A DNA stretch of 64,000 bases from Candidatus Dormiibacterota bacterium (GTDB lineage: Bacteria; Chloroflexota; Dormibacteria; Aeolococcales; Aeolococcaceae), in assembly GCA_035995545.1 (NCBI GenBank), contig DASYKI010000003.1:540-64539 (forward strand), written 5' to 3'. Of the stretch, positions 34,545 to 48,134 are shown piece after piece (position 1 is the stretch's first letter; each line of letters opens with the position of its first letter). The notes below the pieces were generated by a model, which made no database searches, was not told the DNA's origin, and saw only the letters and a list, made by a program, of their open reading frames with translations. Position numbers and translations under genes: made by a program.

Positions 34545-36419
34545 ATGCACGCACGACGTCGCCGCGCTTGGCGCGGCCAGGCAGGACAGGTCATGGTGGT
34601 CTTCGCACTGCTTGCCACCGTGCTGTTCGCCGTCGCCGGCCTCGCCGTCGACGCCGGCATCAGCTATCTCACCGACAACCAGGCGGAGCGCGCCGCCGCC
34701 GCCGGTGCGCTCGCCGGCGTGCCCTACATGCCCAACGGTTGGGGCAGCAGTGCCGACGGCGCCGCCAGGTCCGCGTCGGCGCGCAACGGCTTCGCCGACG
34801 GCGGCACCCGCAACGGGCACAGCGTCGCGGTGTCGCTGGCGCGCTATCCCGCCGGCTGCGGCAGCGTCGCCTCGCCGTGCGACTCCAACAAGCTCACCGT
34901 GTCGGTGACCTCGTGGGCGCAGACCAGCTTCCTGCGCATGCTCGGCTTCGGCGATCACCAGGTCGTGGCCAGCGCCACCGCCTTCTACCTGCCGCCGATC
35001 GCGCTCGGCCAGCCCGGCGCGCAGCTGGGCAGCAGCGTCGACGCCCTGGGCAGCGCCAACAACTACTACATCCTGCGCCACGAGGGCTACGGCAACGACC
35101 GCCAGGAGGGCGACGCCTTCACCCCCACCACCACGCAGCAGACCTTCAACTCCTCGAACGGCTGCGATGTCACCGAGAACACCGCGGGATACGGCAGCTC
35201 CACCGACTCGCACTCGCTGAGCGCGTCGGCGGGGACCGACGTGTCGAGCATGCCGGCACCGTACAACCCGCTGCCCTCACGCGGCGGCTACAACTACGCG
35301 ATCACGGTGCCGAGCACCGTCGCGCAGGCGTCGGTGCGTGTCTACAACCCGGCGTTCGCGCCCGACGGTGGCTACAACCCCAACCCCAATTACGGAACGT
35401 CGAGCAACTACACCCTGCACGAGCAGGACGGCAGCTTCTCCGGCAACGGCTCGACGTCGCAGTACTCGGCGCTGGAGTACACCATCTTCAAGGTGGTCGA
35501 CGTCTTCGACCACACCCAGGACGTGCCGCTGTCGCAGGTGGTCGTCGATCCCATCAACGCCGACCCCAACAACAGCAGCTACACCGACGTCAGCAACGGG
35601 CAGAGCATCCCCGCGTCGGTGGTGAGCTACGCGTACCACGGCTGGGTCGACGTCGGCAATCCCAGCTCGACGTCGTGGACCGCGGGCGGCAAGACCTACA
35701 AGCTGATCAACGTGCTGCAGTCGCTGAGCGGCGGGACGCTGGGACCGGGCAACTACCGGCTGCGCGTCGACATGCTCGACTACAAGGGGCGGCGTCCCAC
35801 CGAGGACGTCGGTGCCCTGCCCTGCTCGCGCGCGCACAAGGGCTACGCGCTGCAGCTGTCCACACCCAGGTCGGGCGGCGGCTACCAGAGCTGCAACGAC
35901 CCCGCCTGCAACGTCAGCGGCATCGGCGAGATGGCCGTCTACACGCCCATCGTCAGCAGCGGGGGGTCGTTCTCGCTGCCGGTCTTCCAGCTCTCCAAGG
36001 ACTACCGCGCCAAGACGGTGAACTTCTTCATCTTCGACCCCGGCGACGTCAGCGGCTCCAACACGCTGACGGTGGTCAACCCCGACACCGGCGCGGTGCT
36101 CACCGCCGACCCCGGCGCCGCGGTGAACATCTACGACCTCGGCGTCAGCCGCAACGTCACGCCGACGCCGTCGATGCTGGTCAACACCCTGTACCCCGGC
36201 TCGCAGCCCAGCACCACCAGGGCCAGCCTGCAGACAGTCGTCAACGGCAGCAACGTCTACAACAGCCACTGGCTGCTCTTCGAGCTGCCCATCCCCGCGA
36301 CGTACAACGGCGGCGCGGGCAGCTACTGGACACTGCAGTACACCGTCAACGGCCAGGCCGGCGACACCGTGACCCTCGCCGTCAGCTACGGCGGGTCGGC
36401 GGTGCACCTGATCAACTAG
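34545..36419 (+). CDS. TadG-like (Tad pilus-assembly) large pseudopilin; the Ser/Thr/Asn/Gly-rich beta region has no further recognisable domain
   Basis: 624 aa. The N-terminus GQAGQVMVVFALLATVLFAVAGLAVDAG is the Tad N-terminal motif. The remainder is low-complexity beta-rich. Confidence 0.55.
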   Translation: MHARRRRAWRGQAGQVMVVFALLATVLFAVAGLAVDAGISYLTDNQAERAAAAGALAGVPYMPNGWGSSADGAARSASARNGFADGGTRNGHSVAVSLARYPAGCGSVASPCDSNKLTVSVTSWAQTSFLRMLGFGDHQVVASATAFYLPPIALGQPGAQLGSSVDALGSANNYYILRHEGYGNDRQEGDAFTPTTTQQTFNSSNGCDVTENTAGYGSSTDSHSLSASAGTDVSSMPAPYNPLPSRGGYNYAITVPSTVAQASVRVYNPAFAPDGGYNPNPNYGTSSNYTLHEQDGSFSGNGSTSQYSALEYTIFKVVDVFDHTQDVPLSQVVVDPINADPNNSSYTDVSNGQSIPASVVSYAYHGWVDVGNPSSTSWTAGGKTYKLINVLQSLSGGTLGPGNYRLRVDMLDYKGRRPTEDVGALPCSRAHKGYALQLSTPRSGGGYQSCNDPACNVSGIGEMAVYTPIVSSGGSFSLPVFQLSKDYRAKTVNFFIFDPGDVSGSNTLTVVNPDTGAVLTADPGAAVNIYDLGVSRNVTPTPSMLVNTLYPGSQPSTTRASLQTVVNGSNVYNSHWLLFELPIPATYNGGAGSYWTLQYTVNGQAGDTVTLAVSYGGSAVHLIN

Positions 36420-37078
36420 ACCTCGACCAGCACCTCGACGGCCGCGTCGCGCCCGATCGCGCTGGTCGCCCCGTCGACCTCCAGCCCCAGAGCCGGACCG
36501 TCGCTGCCGGTGACGCGCACCTCGGTGCCGAGCCCGATGCCCAGCCGCTTGAGCTGGGCGAGCAGGTCGTGCTCCTCGTGGGCGATGCGCCGGACCACCC
36601 CGCTCTCGCCCTGCCCCAGGTCGCTGAGGCGGCGCAGCGCCAGGTCCGGCTCGGGGGTGCCGTCCTCCATGATCGGGTGCCCGTGCGGACACGTCTCCGG
36701 GTGCCCCAGGAAGGCGGCCAGCCGCTCGGTCACCCGCGGCGAGAAGGCGTGCTCGAGGCGATGCGCCTCCTCGTGGACGTCCTCCCAGCCGAAGCCGAGC
36801 ACGTCGACCAGGAGGCGCTCGGCCAGCCGGTGCCGCGATACCAGGGTGCGGGCCAGGTGCAGCCCGCTGGCGCTGAGCTCGATGCGGCGTGAGCCGGTGA
36901 GCAGCCCGCTGGCGCGCAGCCGGGCGACCATCTCGGTGACCGCGGCGGGGGAGACGCCGAGCTGCTCGGCGAGCTGGGTGCCCAGCACCGGTCCGCCGCT
37001 GACGGCGAGCCGGTAGATGCTGACCATGTAGTCCTCGATGGTCGAGCTGGGCCGCAGCGGAGTGGCGTGCGCGTCCAC
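36416..37078 (-). CDS. DtxR/IdeR-family metal-dependent transcriptional repressor with a C-terminal SH3-like (FeoA) domain
   Basis: The N-terminal HTH reads STIEDYMVSIYRL ... GTQLAEQLGVSPAAVTEMVARL. The metal-site residues HEEAHRLEH are present. Its stop overlaps the convergent tadG-like stop. Confidence 0.85.
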   Translation of the reverse strand: MDAHATPLRPSSTIEDYMVSIYRLAVSGGPVLGTQLAEQLGVSPAAVTEMVARLRASGLLTGSRRIELSASGLHLARTLVSRHRLAERLLVDVLGFGWEDVHEEAHRLEHAFSPRVTERLAAFLGHPETCPHGHPIMEDGTPEPDLALRRLSDLGQGESGVVRRIAHEEHDLLAQLKRLGIGLGTEVRVTGSDGPALGLEVDGATSAIGRDAAVEVLVEV

Positions 37079-38417: not shown

Positions 38418-38697
38418 TAGATATCCCTTGCACGAGTGCTGCCCTCTGCCGGATCACGCTCACCGCGCACTCCCTCCCCGCAGCGCGACCCGACCCCGGG
38501 CCGAGTGAGCAAACCGCGCCGCAGGCTACCAGATGCCTCCTAGGGAAATCAAACGTGGCCGGCTGAACTTAACCTGCGAGGCGATTGCTTTCTTCAACGC
38601 GATTGTCAGACAAGGCCCCAGGAAGGCTGGGTACCTTCGTGATAGCTTCCTAGGCACGTCTTCGACGTGTCGACCCGTGGGCGATCGGAGGTCCGGA

Positions 38698-40742
38698 TGT
38701 ACTCCCGCATCTACGTGCCGCTGGACAACTCGGATCACTCCAACGCCTGCGTCGAGGTCGCCGTCGCCCTCGCCCAGGCCTTCGGGGCGAGCTGCACCGG
38801 CAGCCACGTGTACGCCGCGCGCATGCACGACTACCGCTTCAAGCAGATGGAGTACACCCTCCCCGAGGAGTACCAGGACGAGGCCGAGCTGCTCCGCCAG
38901 CGCCGCATCCACGACTCGCTGATCACCACCGGCCTGCAGCTGATCAGCGACTCCTACACCGACGTGATGCGCTACCGCTGCCTGGAGAAGGGCGTCCCCT
39001 TCGAGGCGCGGGCCATCGACGGCAAGAACTGGGAGGAGCTGGTCCGCGACGTCCGCGGCGGGGACTGGGACCTGGTGGTGATGGGGGCGCTGGGCATGGG
39101 CGCGGTCAAGGAGTCGCGCCTGGGGAGCGTCACCGACCGCGTCGTGCGGCGGCTGCGCACCGACACGCTGGTGGTGCGCCGCACCGGCGACGACGCGATG
39201 TCGGGCGACATCGTCGTCGCCGTCGACGGCTCGCCGCAGTCGTTCGGGGGCCTGCTGACCGCGCTGTCGCTGGGCAAGGCGCTGGGCAAGCGGGTACAGG
39301 CGGTGGCCGTCTACGACCCCTACCTGCACTACGCGGTCTTCAACTCCATCGTCGACGTGCTCAGTGAGAAGGCGAGCAAGGTCTTCCGCTTCAAGGAGCA
39401 GGAGGCGCTGCACGAGGAGATCATCGACACCGGGCTGGCCAAGATCTACGAGTCGCACCTCGAGGTGGCGCGCGCGGTCGCCGCGGAGCAGGGCGTCGAC
39501 ATGCCCATCACGCTCCTCGACGGCAAGGCCTTCGAGCAGGTGTCACGGTTCGTACGCGATGTGAGGCCGTGGCTGCTGGTGTGCGGGCGCATCGGGGTGC
39601 ATTCCGACGATGCCATGGACCTGGGCAGCAACACCGACCAGCTGGTGCGGCTGGTCGACTGCGATGTGCTGGTCAGCTCGCGCACGCACGTGCCGCCCAT
39701 CGACGTGCGGGCGGACGCCGCGGTGGTGTGGACGCCGGAGGCGGAGACACGCATGGCGCGGGTCCCGGTGGCTGCGCGCGGCATCGCGCGGACGGCGGTG
39801 CTGCGCTGGTGCACCGAGCGGGGGCATAGCGTGGTGTCGTCGGGCGACGTCGAGTCGGCGCTGGACGAGCTGATGCCCTACCAGCGGGTGATGCGGCGCA
39901 TCGGCGAGGTTGCCTCGACGCTGGAGCGCGCTGAGCAGGCGATGCTGGAGGAGCCGCCTGTCGTGCAGGCGCGGGCAGTGTGTCGCGTGTGCGGGTACGC
40001 GGCCAGCAGCGAAACTCCTGTGGAGTGCCCTGTGTGCGGGGGGGCTGCGTCGTCGTTCGAGCGGATCGATGCGGCGCTGCTGCTCGCCGACGCCGCCGTC
40101 GAAGGCGATGCGGCGGAGGTGGGGTTCGACGGGCACAAGCTGGGCTGGACCATGGAGGCGCGCACGCTGCTGCACGAGCTGCCGGCGGGGTATCTGCGGC
40201 GGCGGGTGAAGGCGATCATCGAGAAGGCGGCGCGCACGCGGCGGCTGCCGGCGATCACTCGGGAGATCGTCGAGCCCTACGTGCTGCCGGAGCTGGAGGC
40301 GCTCGACGGCCGGGGGGAACCGCATCGGGCGCCGATCGTCGGCGGTGCCGGCGGCGCGGCCGCTCCTGCCGCGGGGCGGCTGCCCTGGTCGGCTGAGGCG
40401 GAGTCTCGACTGGAGCGCATTCCTGCGGGGTTCCTGCGCAACCTGGCGCGCGAGCAGGTGGAGCGGCTTGCGCTGCAGGTGCACGCGGGGGAGGTGAGTG
40501 CGCTGCACGTCGAGGCCGGCATCGCCGAGGCACGCGCGCAGATGCAGGCCGCGCTGCGCGGCCCCGGGGACGCTGTCGATGCCGGCGCGAGCGCCGGGTG
40601 TCCGGTGCACCGCAGTGATTCCGCGCCCGTGCCGCAGGCGCCGCCGTCCAACGGCGAGTGCCCGGTGCATCCCCTCAACGAAGTGACGGCCGGCGTCGTC
40701 GAGGCCCTGGGCAAGAAGTCCGCCCACGAGCAGCCCGTCTGA
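38698..40742 (+). CDS. multidomain protein: tandem universal stress protein (UspA) domains + rubredoxin-like zinc ribbon + two PCP_red-like (protochlorophyllide-reductase BchB C-terminal-like) segments + C-terminal CPVH repeats
   Basis: Usp 1 spans MYSRIYVPLDNSDHS ... GMGAVKESRLGSVTDRVVRRLRTDTLVVR. Usp 2 runs to DQLVRLVDCDVLVSS. The zinc ribbon reads CRVCGYAASSETPVECPVCGG. Repeated helical segments read LPAGYLRRRVKAIIEKAA and IPAGFLRNLAREQVERLA. The C-terminus has GCPVHRSD and ECPVHPLNE. Confidence 0.7.
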
Positions 40743-40755
40743 GCGAGCGTCGCGA

Positions 40756-42030
40756 GTGCCAGCTCCGCTAGGTCTCAACGTCTCCCTCCCGAATTGGCCG
40801 GCCATCGGCAACCAGATCCCGGTGGCCGTGATGTTCACCCTGCACATCGTCATCGCGGAGTTCAGCCTCGGCGCCATCACCCTGGCGGTGGGCATGGAGA
40901 CGATCGGCCTGCGCACCGGCAACGAGTGGCACATGCGCTACGCGCGCGCCATCGCCAACGCGTACTACCTGGTCTTCAGCCTGGGCGCCACCTTCGCGGT
41001 GTTCGCCGTCACGGCCATCATCGGGCTCTGGGGCGCGACCTGGGGAGTGCTGCTCAACCGCTTCTTCCTGCTCTTCGCCATCGCCTTCGGGCTGTTCCTG
41101 ATCCTGCTTCCGCTGCTGGTCCTGTACCGCAACAGCTTCGGCAAGATGGCGCCGCGCCGGCACGCCATGCTGGGGTGGGCGGTGTGGTTCTGGCAGACGG
41201 CGTTCATGGTGCTCATCGTCGAGCTCGACGCCTACCTCATCGACCCGGCGCACAGCGGCATCTTGGGCGGCATGGCCAACCCGCCGTACGTGCCGCTGCT
41301 GCTGCACCGCCTGGTCGGCAACGTGTCCTGGACGGCTTTGTTCCTCGCCGGTTTCGCGGTGCTGCGCATGGCGCGCAGGACCGACCTGCGCGAGCGCGCC
41401 TTCCAGTCCTGGGCGGCGCGGCTCAACCTGCGCATCGGCCTGGCCACGGCGATCGCCATGCCGCTGCTCGGCTTCGCGCTGATGGAGGTGCTGCGCACCT
41501 CGGTGCCGGGGTACTTCGACAACCTGGTGCGCGGCGACGCCTCCTACCTGTTCGTCATCCAGGCCGCGGCGCTCGGCGTGCTCTTCGTCAGCGCCAACCT
41601 GGCGCTGGCCGGCGAGGTGGTGCGCGAGCGCCGCGCCGGCCTCTTCAGCCGCGTCTGCGTCGGCGTGGCGGTGATCGGGTTCACCGTCGGCATGCTGCCC
41701 GGCGCAGTGCTCAACGGCGGCACCTTCTGGATCCGCTACGCGGGCATCGGCATCGGACTGCTGGTCACCGTTGCACACCTGCTGGCACGCAGTGCGCCGC
41801 TGCACCCCGCGCCGGTGTACCAGCCCGCGCCCGGCGCCTACGCGGTGCTGCCCTACAGCACGTCGTCGGTGGCGCGGCGCGCGCTGGTGGTCTGCGGCCT
41901 GGTGGCGGTCTCGCTGTCGCTCTACATGGGAGTGATGAAGGAGGAGGCGCGCGGCGCCTATGTGATCAACGGCGAGCTGACCCAGCAGGACGCGCACGGG
42001 CAGTGGAACCCGCAGGGGATCTACCCGTGA
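40756..42030 (+). CDS. cytochrome bd ubiquinol oxidase subunit I-like membrane protein (CydA-like, apparently no Q-loop), paralog 1
   Basis: 424 aa. Helix 1 reads LHIVIAEFSLGAITLAVGMETIGL, which matches the CydA pattern: a heme His, then about 17 residues, then ME.T. Multiple TM helices are present. It starts 14 bp after the previous gene. Confidence 0.65.
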   Translation: MPAPLGLNVSLPNWPAIGNQIPVAVMFTLHIVIAEFSLGAITLAVGMETIGLRTGNEWHMRYARAIANAYYLVFSLGATFAVFAVTAIIGLWGATWGVLLNRFFLLFAIAFGLFLILLPLLVLYRNSFGKMAPRRHAMLGWAVWFWQTAFMVLIVELDAYLIDPAHSGILGGMANPPYVPLLLHRLVGNVSWTALFLAGFAVLRMARRTDLRERAFQSWAARLNLRIGLATAIAMPLLGFALMEVLRTSVPGYFDNLVRGDASYLFVIQAAALGVLFVSANLALAGEVVRERRAGLFSRVCVGVAVIGFTVGMLPGAVLNGGTFWIRYAGIGIGLLVTVAHLLARSAPLHPAPVYQPAPGAYAVLPYSTSSVARRALVVCGLVAVSLSLYMGVMKEEARGAYVINGELTQQDAHGQWNPQGIYP

Positions 42031-42293
42031 CCGCCTTCCTCGTCCCCCTGCTGCGCGACTCCGACTTTCAGATGGCCTGGTACATCTCCGCCGTTCTCTT
42101 CGCCGGGATCGTGCTGGTCGTCTGGGCGGCGTGGCTGGTGCTGCGCCACCTGCGCGTCATCTGGCGGCGCGGCGATCACGGCCTGGCCGCGGTGCTCGCC
42201 GCCGCAACCACGGTGGCTCTGCTGATGTTCTCGTCGATGCTGGTCACCGTCGCCGTGGCGCTGTGGCCGACGGCGACCACCGGGGGCGGCTGA
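42027..42293 (+). CDS. small two-TM membrane protein, unknown function
   Basis: A GTG overlaps the upstream stop. It has two hydrophobic helices. The coding call is tentative. Confidence 0.35.
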   Translation: MTAFLVPLLRDSDFQMAWYISAVLFAGIVLVVWAAWLVLRHLRVIWRRGDHGLAAVLAAATTVALLMFSSMLVTVAVALWPTATTGGG

Positions 42294-42296
42294 GCC

Positions 42297-42797
42297 ATGT
42301 CGCTGATGTCGCGGCGCCGCTTCCTCACCCGGATGACCAACCTGGGCGCGGGGACCATCACCCTGATGCTGTCGATCCCCGCCATCGGTTTCCTGGTCAG
42401 CCCGCTGTTCCAGAAGCGCAAGGTCAGCTGGATCCGCGTCGGCGAGATCGACACCGTCCCGGTGGGGCTGCCGACTCCCTTCGTGGTGGCCATGCCGGTC
42501 GGCGAAGGTCCGGCCACGCCGCCGGTGCAGCGCGTCGTCTACGTGGTGAAGATGACCAGCGGCGAGCTGCTCGCCTTCTCCAACACCTGCACCCACATGC
42601 AGTGCAACGTGCACTGGGATCCGGCGCTCGGCCAGTACCTCTGCCCCTGCCACGGCGGGCTCTACGACATCCGCGGCAACAACATCGGCGGACCGCCGCC
42701 GTCGCCGCTGCCCGAGTGGATCCATCGCACCTACGTCGACCCCGGCACCGGCCGCACCGTGCTCGAAGTCCAGAACCAGTTCAACGAGAGCATCTGA
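42297..42797 (+). CDS. Rieske [2Fe-2S] iron-sulfur protein with a Tat signal
   Basis: The twin-arginine motif reads SRRRFLT. The Rieske boxes are CTHMQC and CPCHGG. Confidence 0.9.
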   Translation: MSLMSRRRFLTRMTNLGAGTITLMLSIPAIGFLVSPLFQKRKVSWIRVGEIDTVPVGLPTPFVVAMPVGEGPATPPVQRVVYVVKMTSGELLAFSNTCTHMQCNVHWDPALGQYLCPCHGGLYDIRGNNIGGPPPSPLPEWIHRTYVDPGTGRTVLEVQNQFNESI

Positions 42798-42798
42798 C

Positions 42799-43998
42799 GT
42801 GCTGCGCCTGGTCACCCGTCCCATGTCGCGGCGCATGCGCAACGCGTACCGGTGGTTCGACGAGCGCACGGGGAGCACCGAGCTGCTCCACAAGGGCCTG
42901 TACGAGGCGGTCCCCGAGAAGGGAGGCTGGGCCTACACGCTGGGCAGCGCGACGCTGGTGCTCATCCTGCTGCAGCTCTTCACCGGCATCTTCCTGCTGC
43001 TGGTGTACTCGCCGTCGTTCGCGGAGGGCTGGTCGACGCTGAAGTTCCTGCAGGACAGCGACCGCTTCGGCTCGTGGGTGCGTGGCATGCACCTGTGGGG
43101 CGCGTACGTGCTCATCCTGGTGATCGGCCTGCACATGCTGCGCACCTTCTTCAGCGCCTCGTACAAACGGCCGCGCGAGCTCAACTGGGTGACCGGCGCG
43201 ATCCTCTTCTTCCTGGTCATGGGGCTGGCCATCACGGGGGCCATGCTGCCCATGGACCAGGCGGCCTACTGGACGCTGGTGGTGGTGACCAACATCCCCC
43301 ACTACATCCCCTTCCTCGGCGACGGCATGCGCCAGCTCTGGCGCGGCAGCAGCGACTTCGTCGGCCAGGTGTCGCTGACGCGCACCTTCGCCATCCACAT
43401 CTGGGTGCTGCCGTTCCTCATGTTCACCTTCATCGGCGCGCACCTCTACCTGCTGCGCCGCCACGGCGAGTTCGGTTCGTGGGTGAACTACCCGACCGCG
43501 AGCACCGACCCCGAGCGCGCGGAGCACGAGCTGGGCGAGCGCATCCGCAACGCCGAGCCGCCCTATCCGGCGCGGCGCATCGAGCGGCAGTGGTCGGTGC
43601 CGCGCACCACCGTCGAGTTCTTCCCCACCCAGCTCTTCAAGGACACGGCGGTCAGCCTGCTCTTCATCACCATCATCTTCGTCTTCGGCTACCTGGTGGG
43701 TGCACCGCTCAGCGAGCAGGCCAACCCGGCGACGCTCACCTACGTGCCCACGCCGGAGTGGTTCTTCCTGCCGCTCGACCAGGTGCTGGTGCTGACTCCG
43801 CAGACGTACCTGATCTTCGCCGGCGTGGTGGTGCTGATCGGCCTGGCCGCCACCTGCATGGTCCTCCTGCCCTTCCTCGATCGCTCGCACGAGCGCTCGC
43901 CGCTGCGCCGCCCCGAGGTGCTGCTGCCCGGACTCTTCCTCACCGGGCTGCTCATCCTGCTCACCGTGCTCGGCGCCAACCGGCTGTACAACCTGTGA
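42799..43998 (+). CDS. cytochrome b (b6-like N-terminal half fused to a subunit-IV-like C-terminal half)
   Basis: 399 aa with conserved His pairs in helices B and D (HMLRTFF ... HIWVLPF). It has a PEW-like region. Confidence 0.85.
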   Translation: MLRLVTRPMSRRMRNAYRWFDERTGSTELLHKGLYEAVPEKGGWAYTLGSATLVLILLQLFTGIFLLLVYSPSFAEGWSTLKFLQDSDRFGSWVRGMHLWGAYVLILVIGLHMLRTFFSASYKRPRELNWVTGAILFFLVMGLAITGAMLPMDQAAYWTLVVVTNIPHYIPFLGDGMRQLWRGSSDFVGQVSLTRTFAIHIWVLPFLMFTFIGAHLYLLRRHGEFGSWVNYPTASTDPERAEHELGERIRNAEPPYPARRIERQWSVPRTTVEFFPTQLFKDTAVSLLFITIIFVFGYLVGAPLSEQANPATLTYVPTPEWFFLPLDQVLVLTPQTYLIFAGVVVLIGLAATCMVLLPFLDRSHERSPLRRPEVLLPGLFLTGLLILLTVLGANRLYNL

Positions 43999-44008
43999 GC
44001 ACCGCACT

Positions 44009-45481
44009 GTGAACGCCGCCAGCCTCGCCGCCACAGCGCCGCTGCAGCCGGTGCCGACGTCGCTGCTCGGCGGCCAGCTCGCCGTCGCCTTCGTCGCGTT
44101 GCTGCACACGCTGATCGCCACCTTCATCACCGGGGGATCCTTCCTCGTCGCGGTCAGCGAGGGCATCAGCATCGCGCGCGGCGACGAGCGGCACGAGCGC
44201 TTCGCCGGCGGCGTGCTCAAGGCGATGGCCTACGTCTTCGGCTTCGGCTCGGCGCTGGCCATCTTCTGGGTGGTCTTCATCCTGCTCGGCATGTGGGGCA
44301 CCTTCTTCATCGCCCTGACGCGGATCACCTTCTGGCCCTTCATCTTCGAGGCCTCGCTGTTCCTCACCGAGATCGTCCTGCTCTACACGCTGTACGCGAA
44401 CTGGCAGCGCCTGCGCGCCTACCGCAAGGTGCGCTTCGGCATGGTGATCCTGCTGGCGGTGGCCTTCTGGTGGCAGCAGTTCTTCATCGACGTCGTCGCC
44501 TCGTTCATGCTCACCCCCAACGGCGGCGACACCTCGCAGCTCAACCAGATCCTCAACCCCACCGACCTGCCGCTGACCATCCACCGCACCGCGGGCAACA
44601 TCGCCTGGGCGGGCGCGATCATCGCAGCGGTGGCGGGCGTGCGCTACCTGCTGGCGCGGCGTCGCGAGCGCCGCACCTTCGTCGACGACCCACCCGCCGA
44701 ACGCAGCGTCGGTGCCATGTCGGCGACGTGGTTCCCCGAGGCCGACCGCGCCGGTGCCGCGCACGCCGCCGCGCACAGCAACGTCGCCTTCTTCGACTGG
44801 GTGGGGACGTGGGGTGCGGTGTGGGCGATCACGCTGACGATGTTCCAGCCCTGGCTGGGCTACAGCTACGCCAAGGAGATCCAGCTCCACGCCTACCCGG
44901 CGTGGTACCGCATGATGTTCGGCGACCTCAGCAACGTCTTCCTGGTGCAGATCACCCTGCTGGGCGGCATCTTCATCCTGGGCACCGTCTTCTTCTGGAG
45001 ACGCATGCGCGCCAGTGGGTCGCGCGGGACACGAACCCAGGTGGCGATGCTGGTGCTGCTGGTGCTCGCCACCCTGCTCGCCGCGGTGCCCGCGCGTTTC
45101 GGCTGGACCTACCCCGACGTCGTCGCCGCGCACCAGGATCGTCCCTGGTGGGACGGCGGCCTGCTCAACCCCATCGGCACCATGATCCCCAACAAGGTGA
45201 TCGCGCTCATCGTGATGATGGTCTGCGCGCTGGTCTCGGTGACATCGTTCGTGCGCGCCCACAGCGCGGGCGAGGTGCGCTGGGGCGACGCCACGCGGCG
45301 CAGCCAGTGGCTGCTCGTGTCGCTGGGGATGACGGTGATGTCGATGATGATCGTGATGGGCATCATCCGTGAGCACAGCCGGCAGCCCTACCTGATCCAG
45401 GGCGAGATGACCATCCAGGGGCAGCAGATCCTCAACAGCAACGGCGCGCCGGGCACCGTGCCACCCAATCCCAACCCATGA
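44009..45481 (+). CDS. cytochrome bd subunit I-like membrane protein (CydA-like), paralog 2
   Basis: 490 aa. Helix 1 (LLHTLIATFITGGSFLVAVSEGISI) parallels paralog 1. The GTG start lies 10 bp after the cyt b stop. Confidence 0.65.
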   Translation: MNAASLAATAPLQPVPTSLLGGQLAVAFVALLHTLIATFITGGSFLVAVSEGISIARGDERHERFAGGVLKAMAYVFGFGSALAIFWVVFILLGMWGTFFIALTRITFWPFIFEASLFLTEIVLLYTLYANWQRLRAYRKVRFGMVILLAVAFWWQQFFIDVVASFMLTPNGGDTSQLNQILNPTDLPLTIHRTAGNIAWAGAIIAAVAGVRYLLARRRERRTFVDDPPAERSVGAMSATWFPEADRAGAAHAAAHSNVAFFDWVGTWGAVWAITLTMFQPWLGYSYAKEIQLHAYPAWYRMMFGDLSNVFLVQITLLGGIFILGTVFFWRRMRASGSRGTRTQVAMLVLLVLATLLAAVPARFGWTYPDVVAAHQDRPWWDGGLLNPIGTMIPNKVIALIVMMVCALVSVTSFVRAHSAGEVRWGDATRRSQWLLVSLGMTVMSMMIVMGIIREHSRQPYLIQGEMTIQGQQILNSNGAPGTVPPNPNP

Positions 45482-45918
45482 GCGCTCGCGATCTCCCCCT
45501 CGGTGCCGTGGCGGTGCGCATGCACCTCTTCAGCAGCCCGTCCTCCGAGGTGGAACGGGCGCTGAAGCCACCGTGGCCCCGGTGGATGCACCGCCTCTAC
45601 GAGCTGGAGCGACTCACCGGGGCGGCCGCGCCCGAGGAGGGGGAGGTGTCGTTGAGCGCCGCGGTCAGCGCCGTGGCCACGCGGCTGCGGCACCGGCTGG
45701 AGCTGGTGGCGTGGTGCGCGGGGGCCATGGAGGAGATCGGCTGGGAGGTGAGCATGGAGGGCGACGACGTCGTCGCCGCCAAGGTCACCCTGCCGGAGCT
45801 GGCTCGTGACGAGCTGGAATTGCACGGGATCTACGGTCCGCTGGGAGCCGTGTGCGATCTCGACGAGCACGGGATGCCGCGACTCATCGAGCGCTGGGAG
45901 ACGGCGCGTGAGCGGTGA
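45478..45918 (+). CDS. hypothetical cytoplasmic protein (146 aa)
   Basis: The ATG overlaps the previous stop. No motif was recognised. Confidence 0.45.
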   Translation: MSARDLPLGAVAVRMHLFSSPSSEVERALKPPWPRWMHRLYELERLTGAAAPEEGEVSLSAAVSAVATRLRHRLELVAWCAGAMEEIGWEVSMEGDDVVAAKVTLPELARDELELHGIYGPLGAVCDLDEHGMPRLIERWETARER

Positions 45919-46303
45919 GGGATGTGCCGCTGCTGCCGCCGCCGCGCACGTGCTCGTCGTCGAGGATGAGCCGATGATCGGGCGCATCCTGGAGCACAAG
46001 CTGGTGCGCGAGGGGCACCGCATCACCTGGGCACGCGATTGCGCGGCCGCCGCGGCTGCGCTCGACGGCGGCGACGTCGACCTTGCGCTGGTGGACGTGA
46101 CGCTCGATCGCGACGGGATCGAGTTCATGTCGACGGCGGCGACGATGTCGCGGTGCGGGTGGGTGGCCATGGTGGCGGCCCGCGACGTGGCGTCGCAGCA
46201 GCGGGCGCGCGCGGCCGGGTGCGCGGCGGTGGTGATCAAGCCGTTCAAGCCGACGGCGGTGGCGGCGCTGGTGGCGCAGCTGGTTGCGGGTGCACGGGTA
46301 TGA
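45908..46303 (+). CDS. single-domain response-regulator receiver (CheY-like)
   Basis: The receiver features are HVLVVEDEPMIG ... DLALVDVTLDRDG ... VVIKPFK. The start is uncertain; it may be the GTG overlapping the upstream gene, or the internal GTG at VLVVEDE. Confidence 0.55.
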   Translation: MSGEGCAAAAAAAHVLVVEDEPMIGRILEHKLVREGHRITWARDCAAAAAALDGGDVDLALVDVTLDRDGIEFMSTAATMSRCGWVAMVAARDVASQQRARAAGCAAVVIKPFKPTAVAALVAQLVAGARV

Positions 46304-47382
46304 CCACGCTGCTGGGTCCTTCCGGCGTTCGCGCGGTGGAATCGCCGCCTGGCTTCGACGCGGCGCAGCCCTGCGCGGTCGAGGCGGCCGGCGTGGAGCG
46401 GCGCTATCGCGGTGGCCGTGGGGTGGGACCCGTCGACGTCGCCGTGGCGGCGGGCGAGGTGATGGTGCTGATGGGGCCCAACGGGGCGGGCAAGACCACG
46501 CTGCTGCGGTTGCTGGCCACCGTCGACCGGCCGCAGCGGGGGCGGGTGCTCTGGTCGGGCGGCGGTGATGCTCGCGTGGCACGGCGCAGCCTTGGGCTGG
46601 CCCTCGACGCCACGGCGGAGGAGCCGTCGCTGAGCGGGATGCAGGCGGCGTACTTCTGGTGCCGGCAGTGGGTTGCGGATCGCGGCCAGGCGGTGAGGCT
46701 GTGCGAGGAGTCCCTGCGTTGGTTCGGGCTGTGGGACGTGCGGGACGAGCCGGTGGGGGCGTACTCGTTCGGGATGCGCCGGCGTCTCGCCTTGGTGCAG
46801 GCGCTCGCACACCGGCCGCGGCTGGCGCTGCTCGACGAGCCGACGGCGGGGCTGGACCCCGCGGGGGTGTCGGCCCTGCTGGGGGAATTGGAGACGCGCT
46901 CGCTCGCGGGTTGCGCCACGGTTGTTGCCAGCAACGACCCGAACTTCGCGGCGGTCGCGGCCCATCGTGTGGCATTTCTCGCCGGCGGGCGGCTGCTGCA
47001 GTGTGCGTCGCCCGTCGATCTGCTGAATGCTGTGGGCGCGGCGCGAGTCGCGCTGCTCGATGCACCGGGCCTCGATCTCGATGCGCTGCGCGAGCTGGCC
47101 GGGGTCGAGCGCGTCGACGCCTCGGCCGGCGGCGCTGTGGTGCGGTACCGCGACCCGGCCGTCCTGCCGCGGATCGTCGCAGCGGCGGACCACCCTGGCG
47201 GCGTGCTGCGACAGGTGCGGCTGCACGAGCCCGACCTGGCGGACGCGTTTCGCGAGCTGGCGGGGCAGGAGCTGTCGCCTGATCCTTCCAGTGTCGATGC
47301 CGGCGGCCGTCGACCCGGTGGCGCAGGGGTCGTGCGTGTCGACAACGAACGCGTCTCCCGGCGTCGGAGCCGCCGCTCGTGA
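46300..47382 (+). CDS. ABC transporter ATP-binding protein (ABC-2 type)
   Basis: Walker A reads GPNGAGKTT. The signature is YSFGMRRR, and Walker B is LALLDEPTAGLD. The ATG overlaps the REC stop. Confidence 0.8.
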   Translation: MTTLLGPSGVRAVESPPGFDAAQPCAVEAAGVERRYRGGRGVGPVDVAVAAGEVMVLMGPNGAGKTTLLRLLATVDRPQRGRVLWSGGGDARVARRSLGLALDATAEEPSLSGMQAAYFWCRQWVADRGQAVRLCEESLRWFGLWDVRDEPVGAYSFGMRRRLALVQALAHRPRLALLDEPTAGLDPAGVSALLGELETRSLAGCATVVASNDPNFAAVAAHRVAFLAGGRLLQCASPVDLLNAVGAARVALLDAPGLDLDALRELAGVERVDASAGGAVVRYRDPAVLPRIVAAADHPGGVLRQVRLHEPDLADAFRELAGQELSPDPSSVDAGGRRPGGAGVVRVDNERVSRRRSRRS

Positions 47383-48134
47383 CCGTCGCCGCCGCGCCCC
47401 CACCGCAGACCGCGGCCCTGCGCCGTGTTCTTCCTGCGGGCATGTGGACGCGCGAGTGGCTGCTCACCGTGGCCCATCCCCGCTCGCTGGCCATCAAGCT
47501 GGCCATGCCCCTTGTCCTGACCGTCCCCCTGCTGGCCGGCAGGGCGCCCACCTTCTGGGCCGGCATGCTGCTGACGGTGCTGGTCGCCATGGTCGGCGCC
47601 GTCGGCTCCGGCGTCACCCTCGCCCGCGCCCGCCAGGGCAGCCTGCTCGCCCGCCTCGCCGTCGTGCCGAGACCGCCGCACCGCGTGGTGGGCGGTTGGG
47701 TCCTCGCCGCCGCCGCGGTCGACACCGTGCAGATGCTCCCCGTCGCCCTCGCGGTCGCGCTCACCGGTGCCGCGCCCGACACCGCCCTGGCCATGCTGCT
47801 CTGCATCCCCGCGGTCCTGCTCGCGACCAACGCCCTCGGCTGCGCGCTGTCTCTGCTGGCCGGTGGGCCTGGCGAGGTGCTGCTCGACGTCGTCGTGGTG
47901 CTCGCCCCGCTGCTGTTCCTCGGCGGGCTGTTCACCGGCGTCCCCCGCGACGGCTGGCGCTTCTGGGCCGCTCGCCTCGACCCTTTCGCCTACCTGCACT
48001 CCGCCTTCGTCGGCGCCCTCGGCGGCTCACCCAGCTTCGCCACGGCGGACGTCCTCGTCGCCGCCGCCGTCACGGCGACGCTGTCGCTGCTGGCCACCGC
48101 CGCCGTCGCCAGGGCGCTGCTGGCGCGCGGGTGA
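47379..48134 (+). CDS. ABC-2-type transporter permease (6 TM)
   Basis: The GTG overlaps the ATPase stop. The whole protein is hydrophobic. Confidence 0.6.
   Translation: MTVAAAPPPQTAALRRVLPAGMWTREWLLTVAHPRSLAIKLAMPLVLTVPLLAGRAPTFWAGMLLTVLVAMVGAVGSGVTLARARQGSLLARLAVVPRPPHRVVGGWVLAAAAVDTVQMLPVALAVALTGAAPDTALAMLLCIPAVLLATNALGCALSLLAGGPGEVLLDVVVVLAPLLFLGGLFTGVPRDGWRFWAARLDPFAYLHSAFVGALGGSPSFATADVLVAAAVTATLSLLATAAVARALLARG

What the first reader, a model, noticed from the sequence alone, without database searches (positions are those of the whole stretch)
38698..40742. Unusual domain fusion: two USP domains + rubredoxin-like zinc ribbon + PCP_red-like repeats + C-terminal CPVH motifs
Tandem UspA domains are common in Actinobacteria. 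Here they are followed by a Cys4 ribbon (CRVCG ... CPVCGG) of the kind found at the rubrerythrin C-terminus. Two helical segments then resemble the C-terminal domain of BchB, the dark protochlorophyllide reductase subunit (the IPAGFLR / LPAGYLR segments). Two CPVH motifs end the protein. The gene sits 14 bp upstream of the bd-like / Rieske operon, so it is a plausible redox or nucleotide sensor, or an assembly factor, for that complex.
Basis: partly seen in the sequence, partly recalled or inferred. Interest (0 to 1): 0.65.

Follow-up and report, generated by a model that had tools for sequence, protein, structure and literature searches.

The report
Oxidase-linked USP, PCP_red, heme-motif protein
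This gene encodes a soluble protein that joins two ATP-type stress-protein domains, a four-cysteine metal knuckle, three small helical modules otherwise known from a chlorophyll enzyme, and a floppy tail with heme-sensor-like motifs; it sits next to respiratory oxidase genes in several bacterial phyla, so it is probably an undescribed helper or regulator of those oxidases.

Summary
Window 38697-40742 (+) encodes a 681-aa protein. It has two USP domains, each with an ATP motif.

The fusion is not rare. 515 genome loci encode relatives, in Dormibacterota (the likely source), Chloroflexota, Rhodothermales, Methylomirabilota/Rokubacteria, Tectomicrobia and Nitrospirota.

Synteny supports a link to terminal oxidases:
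- 21 of 22 close orthologues, and 11 of 11 longer forms, lie beside the same CydA-like/Rieske/cytochrome b/CydA-like operon (OR-N5 or "TO_4" type).
- In Rhodothermales the gene sits in a different bd-like oxidase cluster.
- In Rokubacteria it sits among heme-copper oxidase genes and their biogenesis genes.
- There it travels with an AhbD/NirJ2-like radical SAM enzyme and a small Cys4 protein, both carrying PCP_red, and with an Mrp/NUBPL ATPase.
- One Dormibacterota paralogue group lies in housekeeping context.

The tail motifs are under selection: 104 of 116 tail cysteines are Cys-Pro, mostly CPxH, as in the IRP2 heme-regulatory motif.

Best reading (confidence about 0.45): a nucleotide-gated cytoplasmic adaptor that binds heme and serves oxidase cofactor maturation or control. 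No biochemistry exists and I found no literature on the family. It is a new variant of known kinds, of moderate interest.

The parts
38687..38691 (+). GGAGG ribosome-binding site, 5 nt before the ATG
   Evidence: Read from the sequence. It supports the ATG at 38697 as the start, which is also the JGI gene call.
38697..40742 (+). Gene for the 681-aa USP-USP-PCP_red-Cys4-PCP_red-PCP_red-CPVH protein (stop codon included)
   Evidence: ORF list, Pfam, an exact match to a called gene on the source contig, and an AF2 model with mean pLDDT 79.9.
38697..39179 (+). USP domain 1 (aa 1-161), with a long conserved helical insert (aa 41-98)
   Evidence: Pfam Usp covers residues 1-161. Foldseek matches tandem USPs 3AB8, 3CIS and 4R2J at E about 1e-15. 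The insert carries many invariant residues.
39084..39128 (+). ATP-type motif G-x2-G-x9-G-S of USP1 (aa 130-144, GALGMGAVKESRLGS)
   Evidence: Regex match. G130, G133 and G143 are invariant.
39204..39680 (+). USP domain 2 (aa about 170-328), with a matching helical insert (aa 208-264)
   Evidence: Second Usp stretch, secondary structure of the model, and invariant residues 206-255.
39585..39629 (+). ATP-type motif of USP2 (aa 297-311, GRIGVHSDDAMDLGS)
   Evidence: Regex match. G297, G300 and G310 are invariant.
39708..39872 (+). PCP_red module 1 (aa 338-392; WTPEAE...)
   Evidence: NCBIfam DPOR_BchB aligns residues 338-383 to BchB positions 457-501 of 512. This is also a Pfam PCP_red stretch. 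W345, T346 and A349 are invariant.
39975..40064 (+). Rubrerythrin-type rubredoxin-like Cys4 knuckle (aa 427-456; CRVCGY-x10-CPVCG)
   Evidence: PF21349 scores 27.4 bits against a cutoff of 26.5. PDB rubrerythrins 3MPS and 1NNQ match residues 415-454. All four Cys are invariant.
40137..40310 (+). PCP_red module 2 (aa 481-538; WTMEAR...PAGYLRRR...)
   Evidence: This is the best Pfam PCP_red stretch, residues 484-526. pLDDT is above 90. Foldseek matches 2L09, 2KRU and 2YNM_D.
40377..40556 (+). PCP_red module 3 (aa 561-620; WSAEAE...PAGFLRN...)
   Evidence: Third Pfam stretch, repeat alignment, and a PDB profile hit to DPOR B-subunit C-termini.
40569..40739 (+). Disordered C-terminal tail (aa 625-681)
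   Evidence: pLDDT is below 50 over residues 625-681. The sequence is poorly conserved apart from the CP motifs and LNEVT..LGKK.
40599..40610 (+). CPVH motif 1 (aa 635-638), heme-regulatory-motif type
   Evidence: Position. Conservation and Cys-Pro statistics. The IRP2 CPFH peptide binds heme at about 0.8 uM (PMC10377097).
40659..40670 (+). CPVH motif 2 (aa 655-658)
   Evidence: Same evidence as motif 1.
40756..42030 (+). CydA-like gene 1 (OR-N5a-like); start at GTG 40756 or ATG 40831
   Evidence: Pfam Cyt_bd_oxida_I, N-terminal part only. JGI gene call. Conserved directly downstream in 21 of 22 orthologous loci.
42027..42293 (+). Small 88-aa ORF between CydA-like 1 and the Rieske gene
   Evidence: JGI gene call. 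A small ORF sits at the same place in other loci.
42297..42797 (+). Rieske 2Fe-2S protein
   Evidence: Pfam Rieske and NCBIfam PetC-like.
42799..43998 (+). Cytochrome b (fused b6/subunit IV type)
   Evidence: Pfam Cytochrome_B plus Cytochrom_B_C and NCBIfam cytochrome b6.
44009..45481 (+). CydA-like gene 2 (OR-N5b-like)
   Evidence: Pfam Cyt_bd_oxida_I. It is a paralogue of gene 1 at 26-30% identity.
45478..45918 (+). Conserved 146-aa ORF with no family match
   Evidence: No Pfam hit. Present after CydA-like 2 in 16 of 22 orthologous loci.
45950..46303 (+). Stand-alone response-regulator receiver domain
   Evidence: Pfam Response_reg.
46300..48134 (+). ABC ATPase (46300-47382) and ABC-2 permease (47442-48134)
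   Evidence: Pfam. The pair travels with the operon in 17 of 22 orthologous loci. In the long-form group it lies between the USP gene and CydA-like 1.

Best explanation
The gene encodes a soluble cytoplasmic accessory protein of respiratory terminal oxidases. Here it is probably co-transcribed with a bd-like (OR-N5-type) oxidase/Rieske-cytochrome b operon.

Anatomy (shown):
- The N-terminal half is a tandem pair of ATP-type USP domains, like TTHA0350 or Rv2623.
- The C-terminal half is a flexible string of three PCP_red three-helix modules.
- A rubrerythrin-type Cys4 metal site lies between modules 1 and 2.
- The protein ends in a disordered tail with two Cys-Pro-Val-His motifs of the heme-regulatory type.

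Proposed mechanism (inferred):
- The USP pair binds ATP and acts as an energy-state switch.
- The CPVH motifs transiently capture labile heme through Cys thiolate and His.
- The PCP_red modules act as docking modules. They bring the protein to partner proteins: the oxidase subunits here, and in other phyla PCP_red-bearing maturation enzymes and an Mrp/NUBPL ATPase.
- Heme or iron cofactor supply to the oxidase, or its control, is thereby tied to nucleotide and heme status.

Not shown: ATP binding, heme binding, the metal at the Cys4 site, any partner, and any phenotype.
For: Domains. Both USP domains carry G-x2-G-x9-G-S. The fold matches ATP-bound tandem USP 3AB8 and Rv2623 at E about 1e-15.

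PCP_red repeats match Asr4154 (2L09), the Chlorobium BchB PCP_red domain (2KRU) and all DPOR B-subunit C-termini by profile, with E from 2e-13 to 2e-6. They also match by fold.

The Cys4 site is invariant.

The tail is disordered. Its cysteines are 90% Cys-Pro and mostly CPxH, against 1 of 548 in the body. 88 of 114 full-length homologues keep a CP motif there. A CPFH peptide of IRP2 binds heme with sub-micromolar to micromolar Kd (PMC10377097).

Synteny:
- The same oxidase operon lies directly downstream in 21 of 22 close orthologous loci. It is present in 11 of 11 long-form loci, downstream of an ABC ATPase/ABC-2 permease pair in 10 of them.
- In Rhodothermales, 14-16 of 17 loci place the gene inside a cluster of a CydA-like gene, three c-type cytochrome genes (the last with an EB_dh domain), an AhbD/NirJ2-like radical SAM-PCP_red enzyme, the USP-PCP_red gene, Mrp/NUBPL and a Cys4-PCP_red protein.
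- In Rokubacteria/Methylomirabilota it lies after CoxII, CoxI, heme O synthase, CoxIII, DUF420 and DUF983, all oxidase or oxidase-biogenesis genes.

A two-PCP_red module with its own CPVPHG motifs is fused to the protein in some genomes and is a separate divergent neighbour in others.

There is a 13-nt gap to the next gene and no terminator-like site between them.
Against: There is no experimental datum on any member of the family.

A Dormibacterota paralogue group (59-60% identity) also carries CP motifs but lies after argH among housekeeping genes, with no oxidase within 10 kb.

The CP tail is absent from homologues in Rhodothermales, Rokubacteria and the long-form Dormibacterota group, and from a few close orthologues. 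Heme capture by the tail therefore cannot be the core function of the family.

The window itself lacks the radical SAM, Mrp and Cys4-PCP_red partners.

What PCP_red does in DPOR is not established. It is not the helix that contacts protochlorophyllide: that helix is BchB 398-420 (PMC12022308), whereas PCP_red is at 473-519.

Synteny cannot separate assembly from regulation.
Confidence: 0.45

Rival explanations
1. The protein is purely a regulator or sensor. The USP pair senses ATP or cAMP and the Cys4 iron site senses redox or O2. The protein then binds the cytoplasmic face of the oxidase complex to switch its activity. This would resemble the USP TeaD, which regulates the TeaABC transporter. 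It would have no role in cofactor delivery.
For: Both USP domains have ATP-type motifs. The fold matches regulatory tandem USPs and TeaD (3HGM). The gene is the first in the oxidase cluster, and a stand-alone receiver domain lies in the same cluster. In Nitrospira marina, USPs next to respiratory operons rise under low O2 (PMC8115632).
Against: In other phyla the gene's neighbours are biogenesis genes (heme O synthase, DUF420, an AhbD-like radical SAM enzyme, Mrp/NUBPL) rather than regulators. Repeated PCP_red modules shared with enzymes of the same cluster point to a physical maturation assembly.
Confidence: 0.25
2. The protein is a docking scaffold or electron relay for a NifH/Mrp-type P-loop ATPase. 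In this reading PCP_red is a landing pad for such ATPase dimers, as at the C-terminus of ChlB in the L-protein-bound DPOR complex. The rubredoxin-like iron site would pass electrons or Fe-S clusters to a radical SAM heme-modifying enzyme or to the Rieske protein.
For: Among DPOR chains, only 2YNM_D, the L-protein-bound complex, appears in the Foldseek top 50 for the PCP_red model. All DPOR B sequences nevertheless contain the domain. An Mrp/NUBPL ATPase gene is always followed by a Cys4-PCP_red gene beside the USP-PCP_red gene. The radical SAM enzyme also carries PCP_red. The Cys4 site is of the redox-active rubrerythrin type.
Against: Contacts of the ChlB C-terminus in 2YNM could not be inspected. 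The top-50 argument is indirect. No Mrp-like gene lies in the window or in the Dormibacterota loci. The Cys4 site may simply bind zinc.
Confidence: 0.17
3. The protein is a general stress protein whose position next to the oxidase operon is incidental or merely inherited within one lineage.
For: Databases name it only as a universal stress protein. A paralogue group lies in unrelated housekeeping context.
Against: Adjacency to three different kinds of terminal-oxidase cluster recurs in distantly related phyla, with different gene orders. Lineage inheritance does not explain this.
Confidence: 0.08

Closest known systems
Tandem-type ATP-binding universal stress proteins (TTHA0350, M. tuberculosis Rv2623, E. 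coli UspE)
   Same: Two USP domains in one chain. Both carry G-x2-G-x9-G(S/T). The fold matches at E about 1e-15, with TM-score 0.7-0.86 on the target.
   Different: Each USP domain carries a roughly 55-residue, highly conserved helical insert. About 350 further residues follow (PCP_red x3, Cys4 site, CP tail) that no characterised USP has.
TeaD, the USP encoded with and regulating the TeaABC TRAP transporter
   Same: A USP protein encoded within the operon of a membrane complex. It matches by sequence and fold (3HGM).
   Different: TeaD has a single domain, no metal site and no heme-type motifs. Here the partner complex is an oxidase, not a transporter.
PCP_red domain: C-terminus of DPOR subunit BchB/ChlB, and stand-alone Asr4154 (2L09) and 2KRU
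   Same: Each of the three repeats is homologous to it. The profile gives E 2e-13 to 2L09 and maps to BchB 473-519 of 525. The fold matches with rmsd 1.4-3.1 A.
   Different: There is no nitrogenase-like Oxidored_nitro body, so the protein is not a DPOR subunit. The module is tripled (up to 5-6 copies in relatives) and occurs in non-phototrophs.
Rubredoxin-like C-terminal domain of rubrerythrin
   Same: CxxCGY-x10-CPxCG spacing. The Pfam RUBY_RBDX score is just above the gathering score. PDB rubrerythrins are hit.
   Different: There is no ferritin-like di-iron domain. The metal is unknown.
Cys-Pro heme regulatory motifs (IRP2 CPFH, heme oxygenase-2; from my own knowledge also Irr GCPWHD and Hap1)
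   Same: A Cys-Pro dipeptide with His two residues on, in a flexible region, present in more than one copy (PMC10377097, PMC2742820).
   Different: Heme binding is untested here. The host protein is a USP fusion, and no bacterial oxidase accessory protein with such motifs turned up in my searches.
OR-N5a/b + petABD operon (Murali, Gennis and Hemp 2021), also called TO_4 (Yu et al. 2021)
   Same: The downstream operon has two CydA-like paralogues flanking a Rieske gene and a fused cytochrome b gene.
   Different: Neither paper's main text mentions a USP/PCP_red gene. For Murali et al. I also searched the supplement and found none. Subfamily membership of the CydA-like genes was not tested phylogenetically.

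Membership tests
Universal stress protein family, ATP-binding (MJ0577/TTHA0350) class | USP alpha/beta fold | tested here: met
   Pfam Usp E 7e-33 with two stretches. Foldseek matches 3AB8, 3CIS and 1MJH.
Universal stress protein family, ATP-binding (MJ0577/TTHA0350) class | G-x2-G-x9-G(S/T) nucleotide motif | tested here: met
   Present in both domains, at aa 130-144 and 297-311. The glycines are invariant.
Universal stress protein family, ATP-binding (MJ0577/TTHA0350) class | Measured ATP (or cAMP) binding | not testable with these tools
   This needs purified protein.
PCP_red (PF08369) | Profile match above the curated cutoff | tested here: met
   81.2 bits against 32.5, in three stretches. 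A profile of the repeats retrieves 2L09, 2KRU and all DPOR B chains.
PCP_red (PF08369) | Small three-helix fold as in 2L09 and 2KRU | tested here: met
   The model has pLDDT above 90 in the repeats. Foldseek ranks 2L09 and 2KRU first and second (probability 1.00, rmsd 3.1 and 1.4 A), although the E-values are only 0.02-0.07.
DPOR subunit B (BchB/ChlB) | Nitrogenase-like catalytic body (Oxidored_nitro) and full-length equivalog score | tested here: not met
   Only the last 45 or so positions of the BchB models align, scoring 52 bits against a cutoff of 509. No Oxidored_nitro hit was found.
Rubrerythrin rubredoxin-like domain (PF21349) | Profile match and four conserved Cys | tested here: met
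   27.4 bits against a cutoff of 26.5, which is marginal. C429, C432, C444 and C447 are invariant.
Rubrerythrin rubredoxin-like domain (PF21349) | Fe(Cys)4 centre (iron rather than zinc) | not testable with these tools
   Metal analysis is needed.
Rubrerythrin | Ferritin-like di-iron four-helix bundle | tested here: not met
   No such Pfam or NCBIfam hit was found. PDB rubrerythrin alignments cover only residues 415-454.
Heme regulatory (Cys-Pro) motif | Cys-Pro dipeptide in a flexible segment, conserved, with a nearby His | tested here: met
   CPVH at 635 and 655. Tail pLDDT is below 50. 104 of 116 tail Cys are CP and 59 are CPxH, against 1 of 548 in the body.
Heme regulatory (Cys-Pro) motif | Reversible heme binding through the Cys thiolate | not testable with these tools
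   Hemin titration of wild type against Cys-to-Ala variants is needed.
OR-N5a/b + petABD bd-like oxidase operon (context) | Two CydA-like paralogues together with Rieske and cytochrome b genes | tested here: met
   Pfam on the four genes. The operon is described in the supplement of 10.1101/2021.01.16.426971.
OR-N5a/b + petABD bd-like oxidase operon (context) | Phylogenetic placement in the OR-N5 clades and absence of the quinol-binding Q-loop | not tested
   No reference OR-N5 sequences were fetched.

The most novel reading that the evidence does not exclude
The USP-PCP_red family may belong to a previously undescribed cofactor-maturation system for terminal oxidases, both bd-like OR-N and heme-copper types. 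The other parts would be the AhbD/NirJ2-like radical SAM-PCP_red enzyme, the Mrp/NUBPL ATPase and the Cys4-PCP_red protein. In this system PCP_red would be a shared docking module. It may be the same device that tethers the NifH-like L-protein to ChlB in DPOR. It would link an ATP-driven iron-sulfur ATPase, a heme-modifying radical SAM enzyme and a heme-binding, ATP-sensing scaffold. The window's protein would be that scaffold, kept alone beside the OR-N5/bc operon in Dormibacterota.
Probability: 0.2. Interest if true: 0.8.

Novelty: new variant of a known kind. Interest (0 to 1): 0.58.

Why it matters
Bd-like (OR-N) oxidases are thought to be the main oxygen reductases of Nitrospira, Manganitrophus and many soil phyla such as Dormibacterota. 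None has been purified, and nothing is known about how their hemes are inserted or controlled.

A conserved, soluble and easily expressed neighbour with ATP, metal and heme-type motifs offers a concrete experimental handle. It also gives the first functional context for the PCP_red module outside chlorophyll synthesis. In addition, it points to an uncharacterised AhbD/NirJ-like radical SAM enzyme next to terminal oxidase genes, which could make or modify an oxidase heme.

If instead the protein is just a local regulator, it is still a useful marker gene for these operons.

Tried and rejected
- I first assumed PCP_red is the part of BchB that caps protochlorophyllide, which would make it a tetrapyrrole-binding module. 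I rejected this. The Pchlide-contacting trans helix is BchB 398-420 (PMC12022308), whereas PCP_red aligns to 473-519 of 525.
- I searched the window for the partner genes seen in other phyla: radical SAM-PCP_red, Mrp/NUBPL, Cys4-PCP_red and the extra two-PCP_red module. None is present. No paralogue of the gene lies in the window either.
- Literature searches returned nothing on this family. Terms tried were PCP_red/PF08369; bd-like with radical SAM and USP; Dormibacterota oxidases; Manganitrophus terminal oxidases; and oxygen-independent heme A synthase.
- The Nitrospira marina report of low-O2-induced USPs near respiratory operons is only generic.
- The promoter and terminator scan found no sigma-70-like promoter and no terminator between the gene and the operon.
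- Upstream inverted repeats, and an alignment with two orthologous upstream regions, showed no convincing conserved operator.
- My home-made gene caller produced some antisense shadow ORFs (cluster 2). For that reason, presence and absence were re-scored by tblastn.
Full report
**1. What is there**

The ORF list shows one long open frame at 38667-40742 on the + strand. The ATG at 38697 is preceded by GGAGG five bases upstream. It is also the start used in an independent JGI gene call on the source contig (metagenome 3300041409, contig of 351,908 bp), whose 681-aa product is identical to my translation. Everything else in the observation checks out.

Pfam finds the following:
- Usp, E 7e-33, two stretches.
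- PCP_red, E 5.5e-23, 81 bits against a gathering score of 32.5, three stretches.
- The rubrerythrin rubredoxin-like domain at residues 428-455, 27.4 bits against 26.5.

NCBIfam aligns residues 338-383 with positions 457-501 of the 512-position DPOR BchB model. There are thus three PCP_red modules, starting at W345, W484 and W564, not two.

Both USP domains carry the ATP-type motif G-x2-G-x9-G-S, at residues 130-144 and 297-311. The two CPVH motifs are at C635 and C655.

**2. Structure**

An AlphaFold2 model built on 55 homologues has mean pLDDT 79.9. The USP and PCP_red parts are mostly above 90. The linkers at 470-477 and 539-558, and the tail at 625-681, are below 50.

Foldseek against the PDB puts tandem USPs first: TTHA0350 with ATP, Rv2623 and UspE, at E about 1e-15.

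A separate model of residues 478-625 finds the two solved PCP_red domains first. These are Asr4154 (2L09) and the Chlorobium BchB domain (2KRU), both at probability 1.00 but with weak E-values. It also finds the C-terminus of ChlB in 2YNM.

A profile of eleven repeats retrieves 2L09, 2KRU and every DPOR B subunit in the PDB. It always maps to their last 50 or so residues, for example BchB 473-519 of 525.

**3. Conservation**

The protein is strongly conserved. About 170 columns are invariant among the 55 sequences. They include the four knuckle cysteines and long stretches of the helical inserts inside both USP domains.

The tail is not conserved except for its Cys-Pro motifs. 88 of 114 full-length homologues have a CP after residue 560, most often as CPVH. 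In 87 tails, 104 of 116 cysteines are followed by proline, and 59 are CPxH. Only 1 of 548 cysteines in residues 1-420 is followed by proline. That is selection, not chance.

Cys-Pro dipeptides in flexible segments are the hallmark of heme regulatory motifs. The IRP2 peptide containing CPFH binds heme with a Kd near 1 uM (PMC10377097; see also PMC2742820). Heme binding by this protein is an inference.

**4. How common is it, and in which organisms**

The fusion is not rare. The protein search gave 4,909 hits, many of them through USP alone. The best 120 all carry Usp plus PCP_red and are named only "universal stress protein", mostly from Candidatus Dormibacterota.

The C-terminal half alone finds 331 cluster representatives at 50% identity. 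Of 60 diverse ones scanned, 59 have PCP_red, 40 have Usp and 14 have the rubredoxin-like domain.

In one genome per species, 515 loci encode a relative. The best 80 come from Dormibacterota/Chloroflexota, Rhodothermales, Methylomirabilota/Rokubacteria, Tectomicrobia, Planctomycetota and Nitrospirota. The window is most similar to Dormibacterota MAGs, at 79% identity.

**5. Neighbourhood in the window**

The gene is followed by these genes:
- a CydA-like gene, after 13 nt if GTG 40756 is the start (JGI prefers ATG 40831);
- an 88-aa ORF;
- a Rieske gene;
- a fused cytochrome b gene;
- a second CydA-like gene;
- a 146-aa ORF without family;
- a stand-alone receiver domain;
- an ABC ATPase and an ABC-2 permease.

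No terminator-like site separates the gene from the operon.

This operon type is already described. Murali, Gennis and Hemp call it OR-N5a/b with petA, petB and petD. Yu et al. call it TO_4. Neither main text mentions the USP/PCP_red gene, and for Murali et al. the supplement does not either.

**6. Neighbourhood elsewhere**

I scored 80 loci by tblastn and annotated representative neighbours with Pfam and NCBIfam.

- (a) **Close orthologues (63% identity or more).** 21 of 22 have the CydA-like gene directly downstream. The rest of the operon follows wherever the contig is long enough. The ABC pair follows in 17.
- (b) **Long forms (840-870 aa; Dormibacterota and one Ktedonobacterales).** All 11 have the same operon. 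In 10 of them the ABC pair is inserted between the gene and the operon. These long forms carry two more PCP_red modules and end in GDFHEGRYGFR.
- (c) **Split module.** In many group (a) loci that extra module is a separate, divergently transcribed 235-284-aa gene. It starts with its own CPVPHG or CPFPHD motifs. This is a fusion/fission pair. The window has neither version.
- (d) **Dormibacterota paralogue group (59-60% identity).** It has CP tails but lies after argH, among arg, dus, coaX, greA, lysS and serS genes, with no oxidase nearby.
- (e) **Rhodothermales.** 14-16 of 17 loci place the gene in the following order: a 600-aa CydA-like gene; three c-type cytochrome genes, the last with an EB_dh domain (the TO_1 type); a radical SAM/SPASM enzyme with a C-terminal PCP_red; a hypothetical gene; the USP-PCP_red gene; Mrp/NUBPL; and a Cys4-ribbon-PCP_red protein. 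Heme-copper oxidase genes follow in about half of the loci (CoxI in 9 of 17). The radical SAM enzyme is closest to NirJ2 and to heme b synthase AhbD (340 and 303 bits) but scores below their cutoffs of 500.
- (f) **Rokubacteria, Methylomirabilota, Tectomicrobia and Nitrospirota.** The gene follows CoxII, CoxI, heme O synthase, two CoxIII genes, DUF420 and DUF983. After it comes either the same radical SAM-PCP_red enzyme or Mrp plus Cys4-PCP_red.

**7. Interpretation**

Adjacency to three different kinds of terminal oxidase cluster recurs in distant phyla and with different gene orders. That argues for a functional link with terminal oxidases in general rather than with the bd-like/Rieske complex alone.

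The company the gene keeps outside Dormibacterota consists of biogenesis genes: heme O synthase, DUF420 (from my own knowledge the CtaM family), a heme-type radical SAM enzyme and an Fe-S carrier ATPase. That tilts the balance toward cofactor maturation over pure regulation, but it does not settle the question.

The same PCP_red module occurs on three different proteins of one cluster, and it is multiplied three to six times on the USP protein. That pattern suggests a docking or hand-over module.

I could not establish what PCP_red does in DPOR. It is not the helix that touches protochlorophyllide (BchB 398-420). Among DPOR chains, only the L-protein-bound complex 2YNM appears in the fold-search top 50. 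This hints that the domain becomes ordered when the NifH-like ATPase binds. That hint, together with the strict Mrp/Cys4-PCP_red gene pairing, is the basis of the docking-scaffold rival and of the novel case.

The CP tail is restricted to Dormibacterota forms. Heme capture by the tail is therefore a lineage-specific addition and not the core activity of the family.

**8. Verdict**

The domains are all known. The architecture, its oxidase-linked synteny and its PCP_red partner genes appear to be undescribed in the literature I could search. I rate it a new variant of known kinds. Interest is moderate, mainly as an entry point to the assembly or control of bd-like oxidases and to the function of PCP_red.

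Noticed in passing
L045:8254-9480 (also L056:12003-13772 and L080:5612-6991): A radical SAM/SPASM enzyme closest to NirJ2 and to heme b synthase AhbD, but scoring below their cutoffs. It carries a C-terminal PCP_red domain and is encoded next to terminal-oxidase genes in Rhodothermales, Rokubacteria and Nitrospirota. It may modify or make a heme for the oxidase. I found no description of it.
   Followed up: partly
L045:11923-12810 and L045:12817-13293 (the same pair in L048:12083-13752): An Mrp/NUBPL-type Fe-S carrier ATPase gene is always followed by a roughly 160-aa gene encoding an N-terminal Cys4 ribbon and a C-terminal PCP_red domain. The pair lies directly after the USP-PCP_red gene.
   Followed up: partly
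L042:9178-9891 (-); L003, L010, L015 and L017 likewise; fused form in L001:2309-4930: This is a fusion/fission pair. A module of two PCP_red repeats ending in GDFHEGRYGFR, preceded by CPVPHG or CPFPHD motifs, is the C-terminus of the long forms. In other genomes it is a separate divergent neighbour gene. The window protein stops just where this module would begin (LNEVT..LGKK), and the module is absent from the window.
   Followed up: yes
window 42027-42293 (+): An 88-aa ORF with two hydrophobic stretches lies between the first CydA-like gene and the Rieske gene. JGI calls it as a gene. A small ORF sits at the same place in several related loci. It may be a small oxidase subunit.
   Followed up: no
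window 45478-45918 (+): A 146-aa ORF with no Pfam or NCBIfam family overlaps the stop of the second CydA-like gene by 4 nt. It is conserved at that position in 16 of 22 orthologous loci.
   Followed up: partly
window 45950-48134 (+): A stand-alone receiver domain, an ABC ATPase and an ABC-2 permease travel with the oxidase operon. In the long-form group the ABC pair sits between the USP gene and the oxidase genes. It may be an exporter needed by the complex.
   Followed up: partly
window 38817-38990 and 39318-39488 (aa 41-98 and 208-264): Each USP domain holds a long helical hairpin insert with many invariant residues (for example HDYRFKQMEYTLPEEYQ and FRFKEQEALHEEIIDTGL). The two inserts resemble each other. 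They are the most conserved and least explained part of the protein.
   Followed up: no
window 40756 or 40831: The start of the first CydA-like gene is ambiguous. GTG 40756 leaves a 13-nt gap and puts the conserved TM1 histidine at residue 30. JGI's ATG 40831 would put it at residue 5 and would truncate the first helix.
   Followed up: partly
window 36416-37078 (-): A DtxR/IdeR-type iron-dependent repressor with a FeoA domain lies three genes upstream on the other strand. It is conserved there only in the two closest loci (L001, L002). No operator was found upstream of the USP gene.
   Followed up: partly
One member of alignment A4: One relative of the C-terminal half combines PCP_red with a heme-oxygenase-like domain (PF14518/TENA-PQQC). 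This is another link between PCP_red and tetrapyrrole or iron chemistry.
   Followed up: no
L025:2252-9936: The Dormibacterota paralogue of the gene always lies just after a complete arginine-biosynthesis cluster (argC, argJ, argB, argD, argR, argH), in the same orientation.
   Followed up: partly
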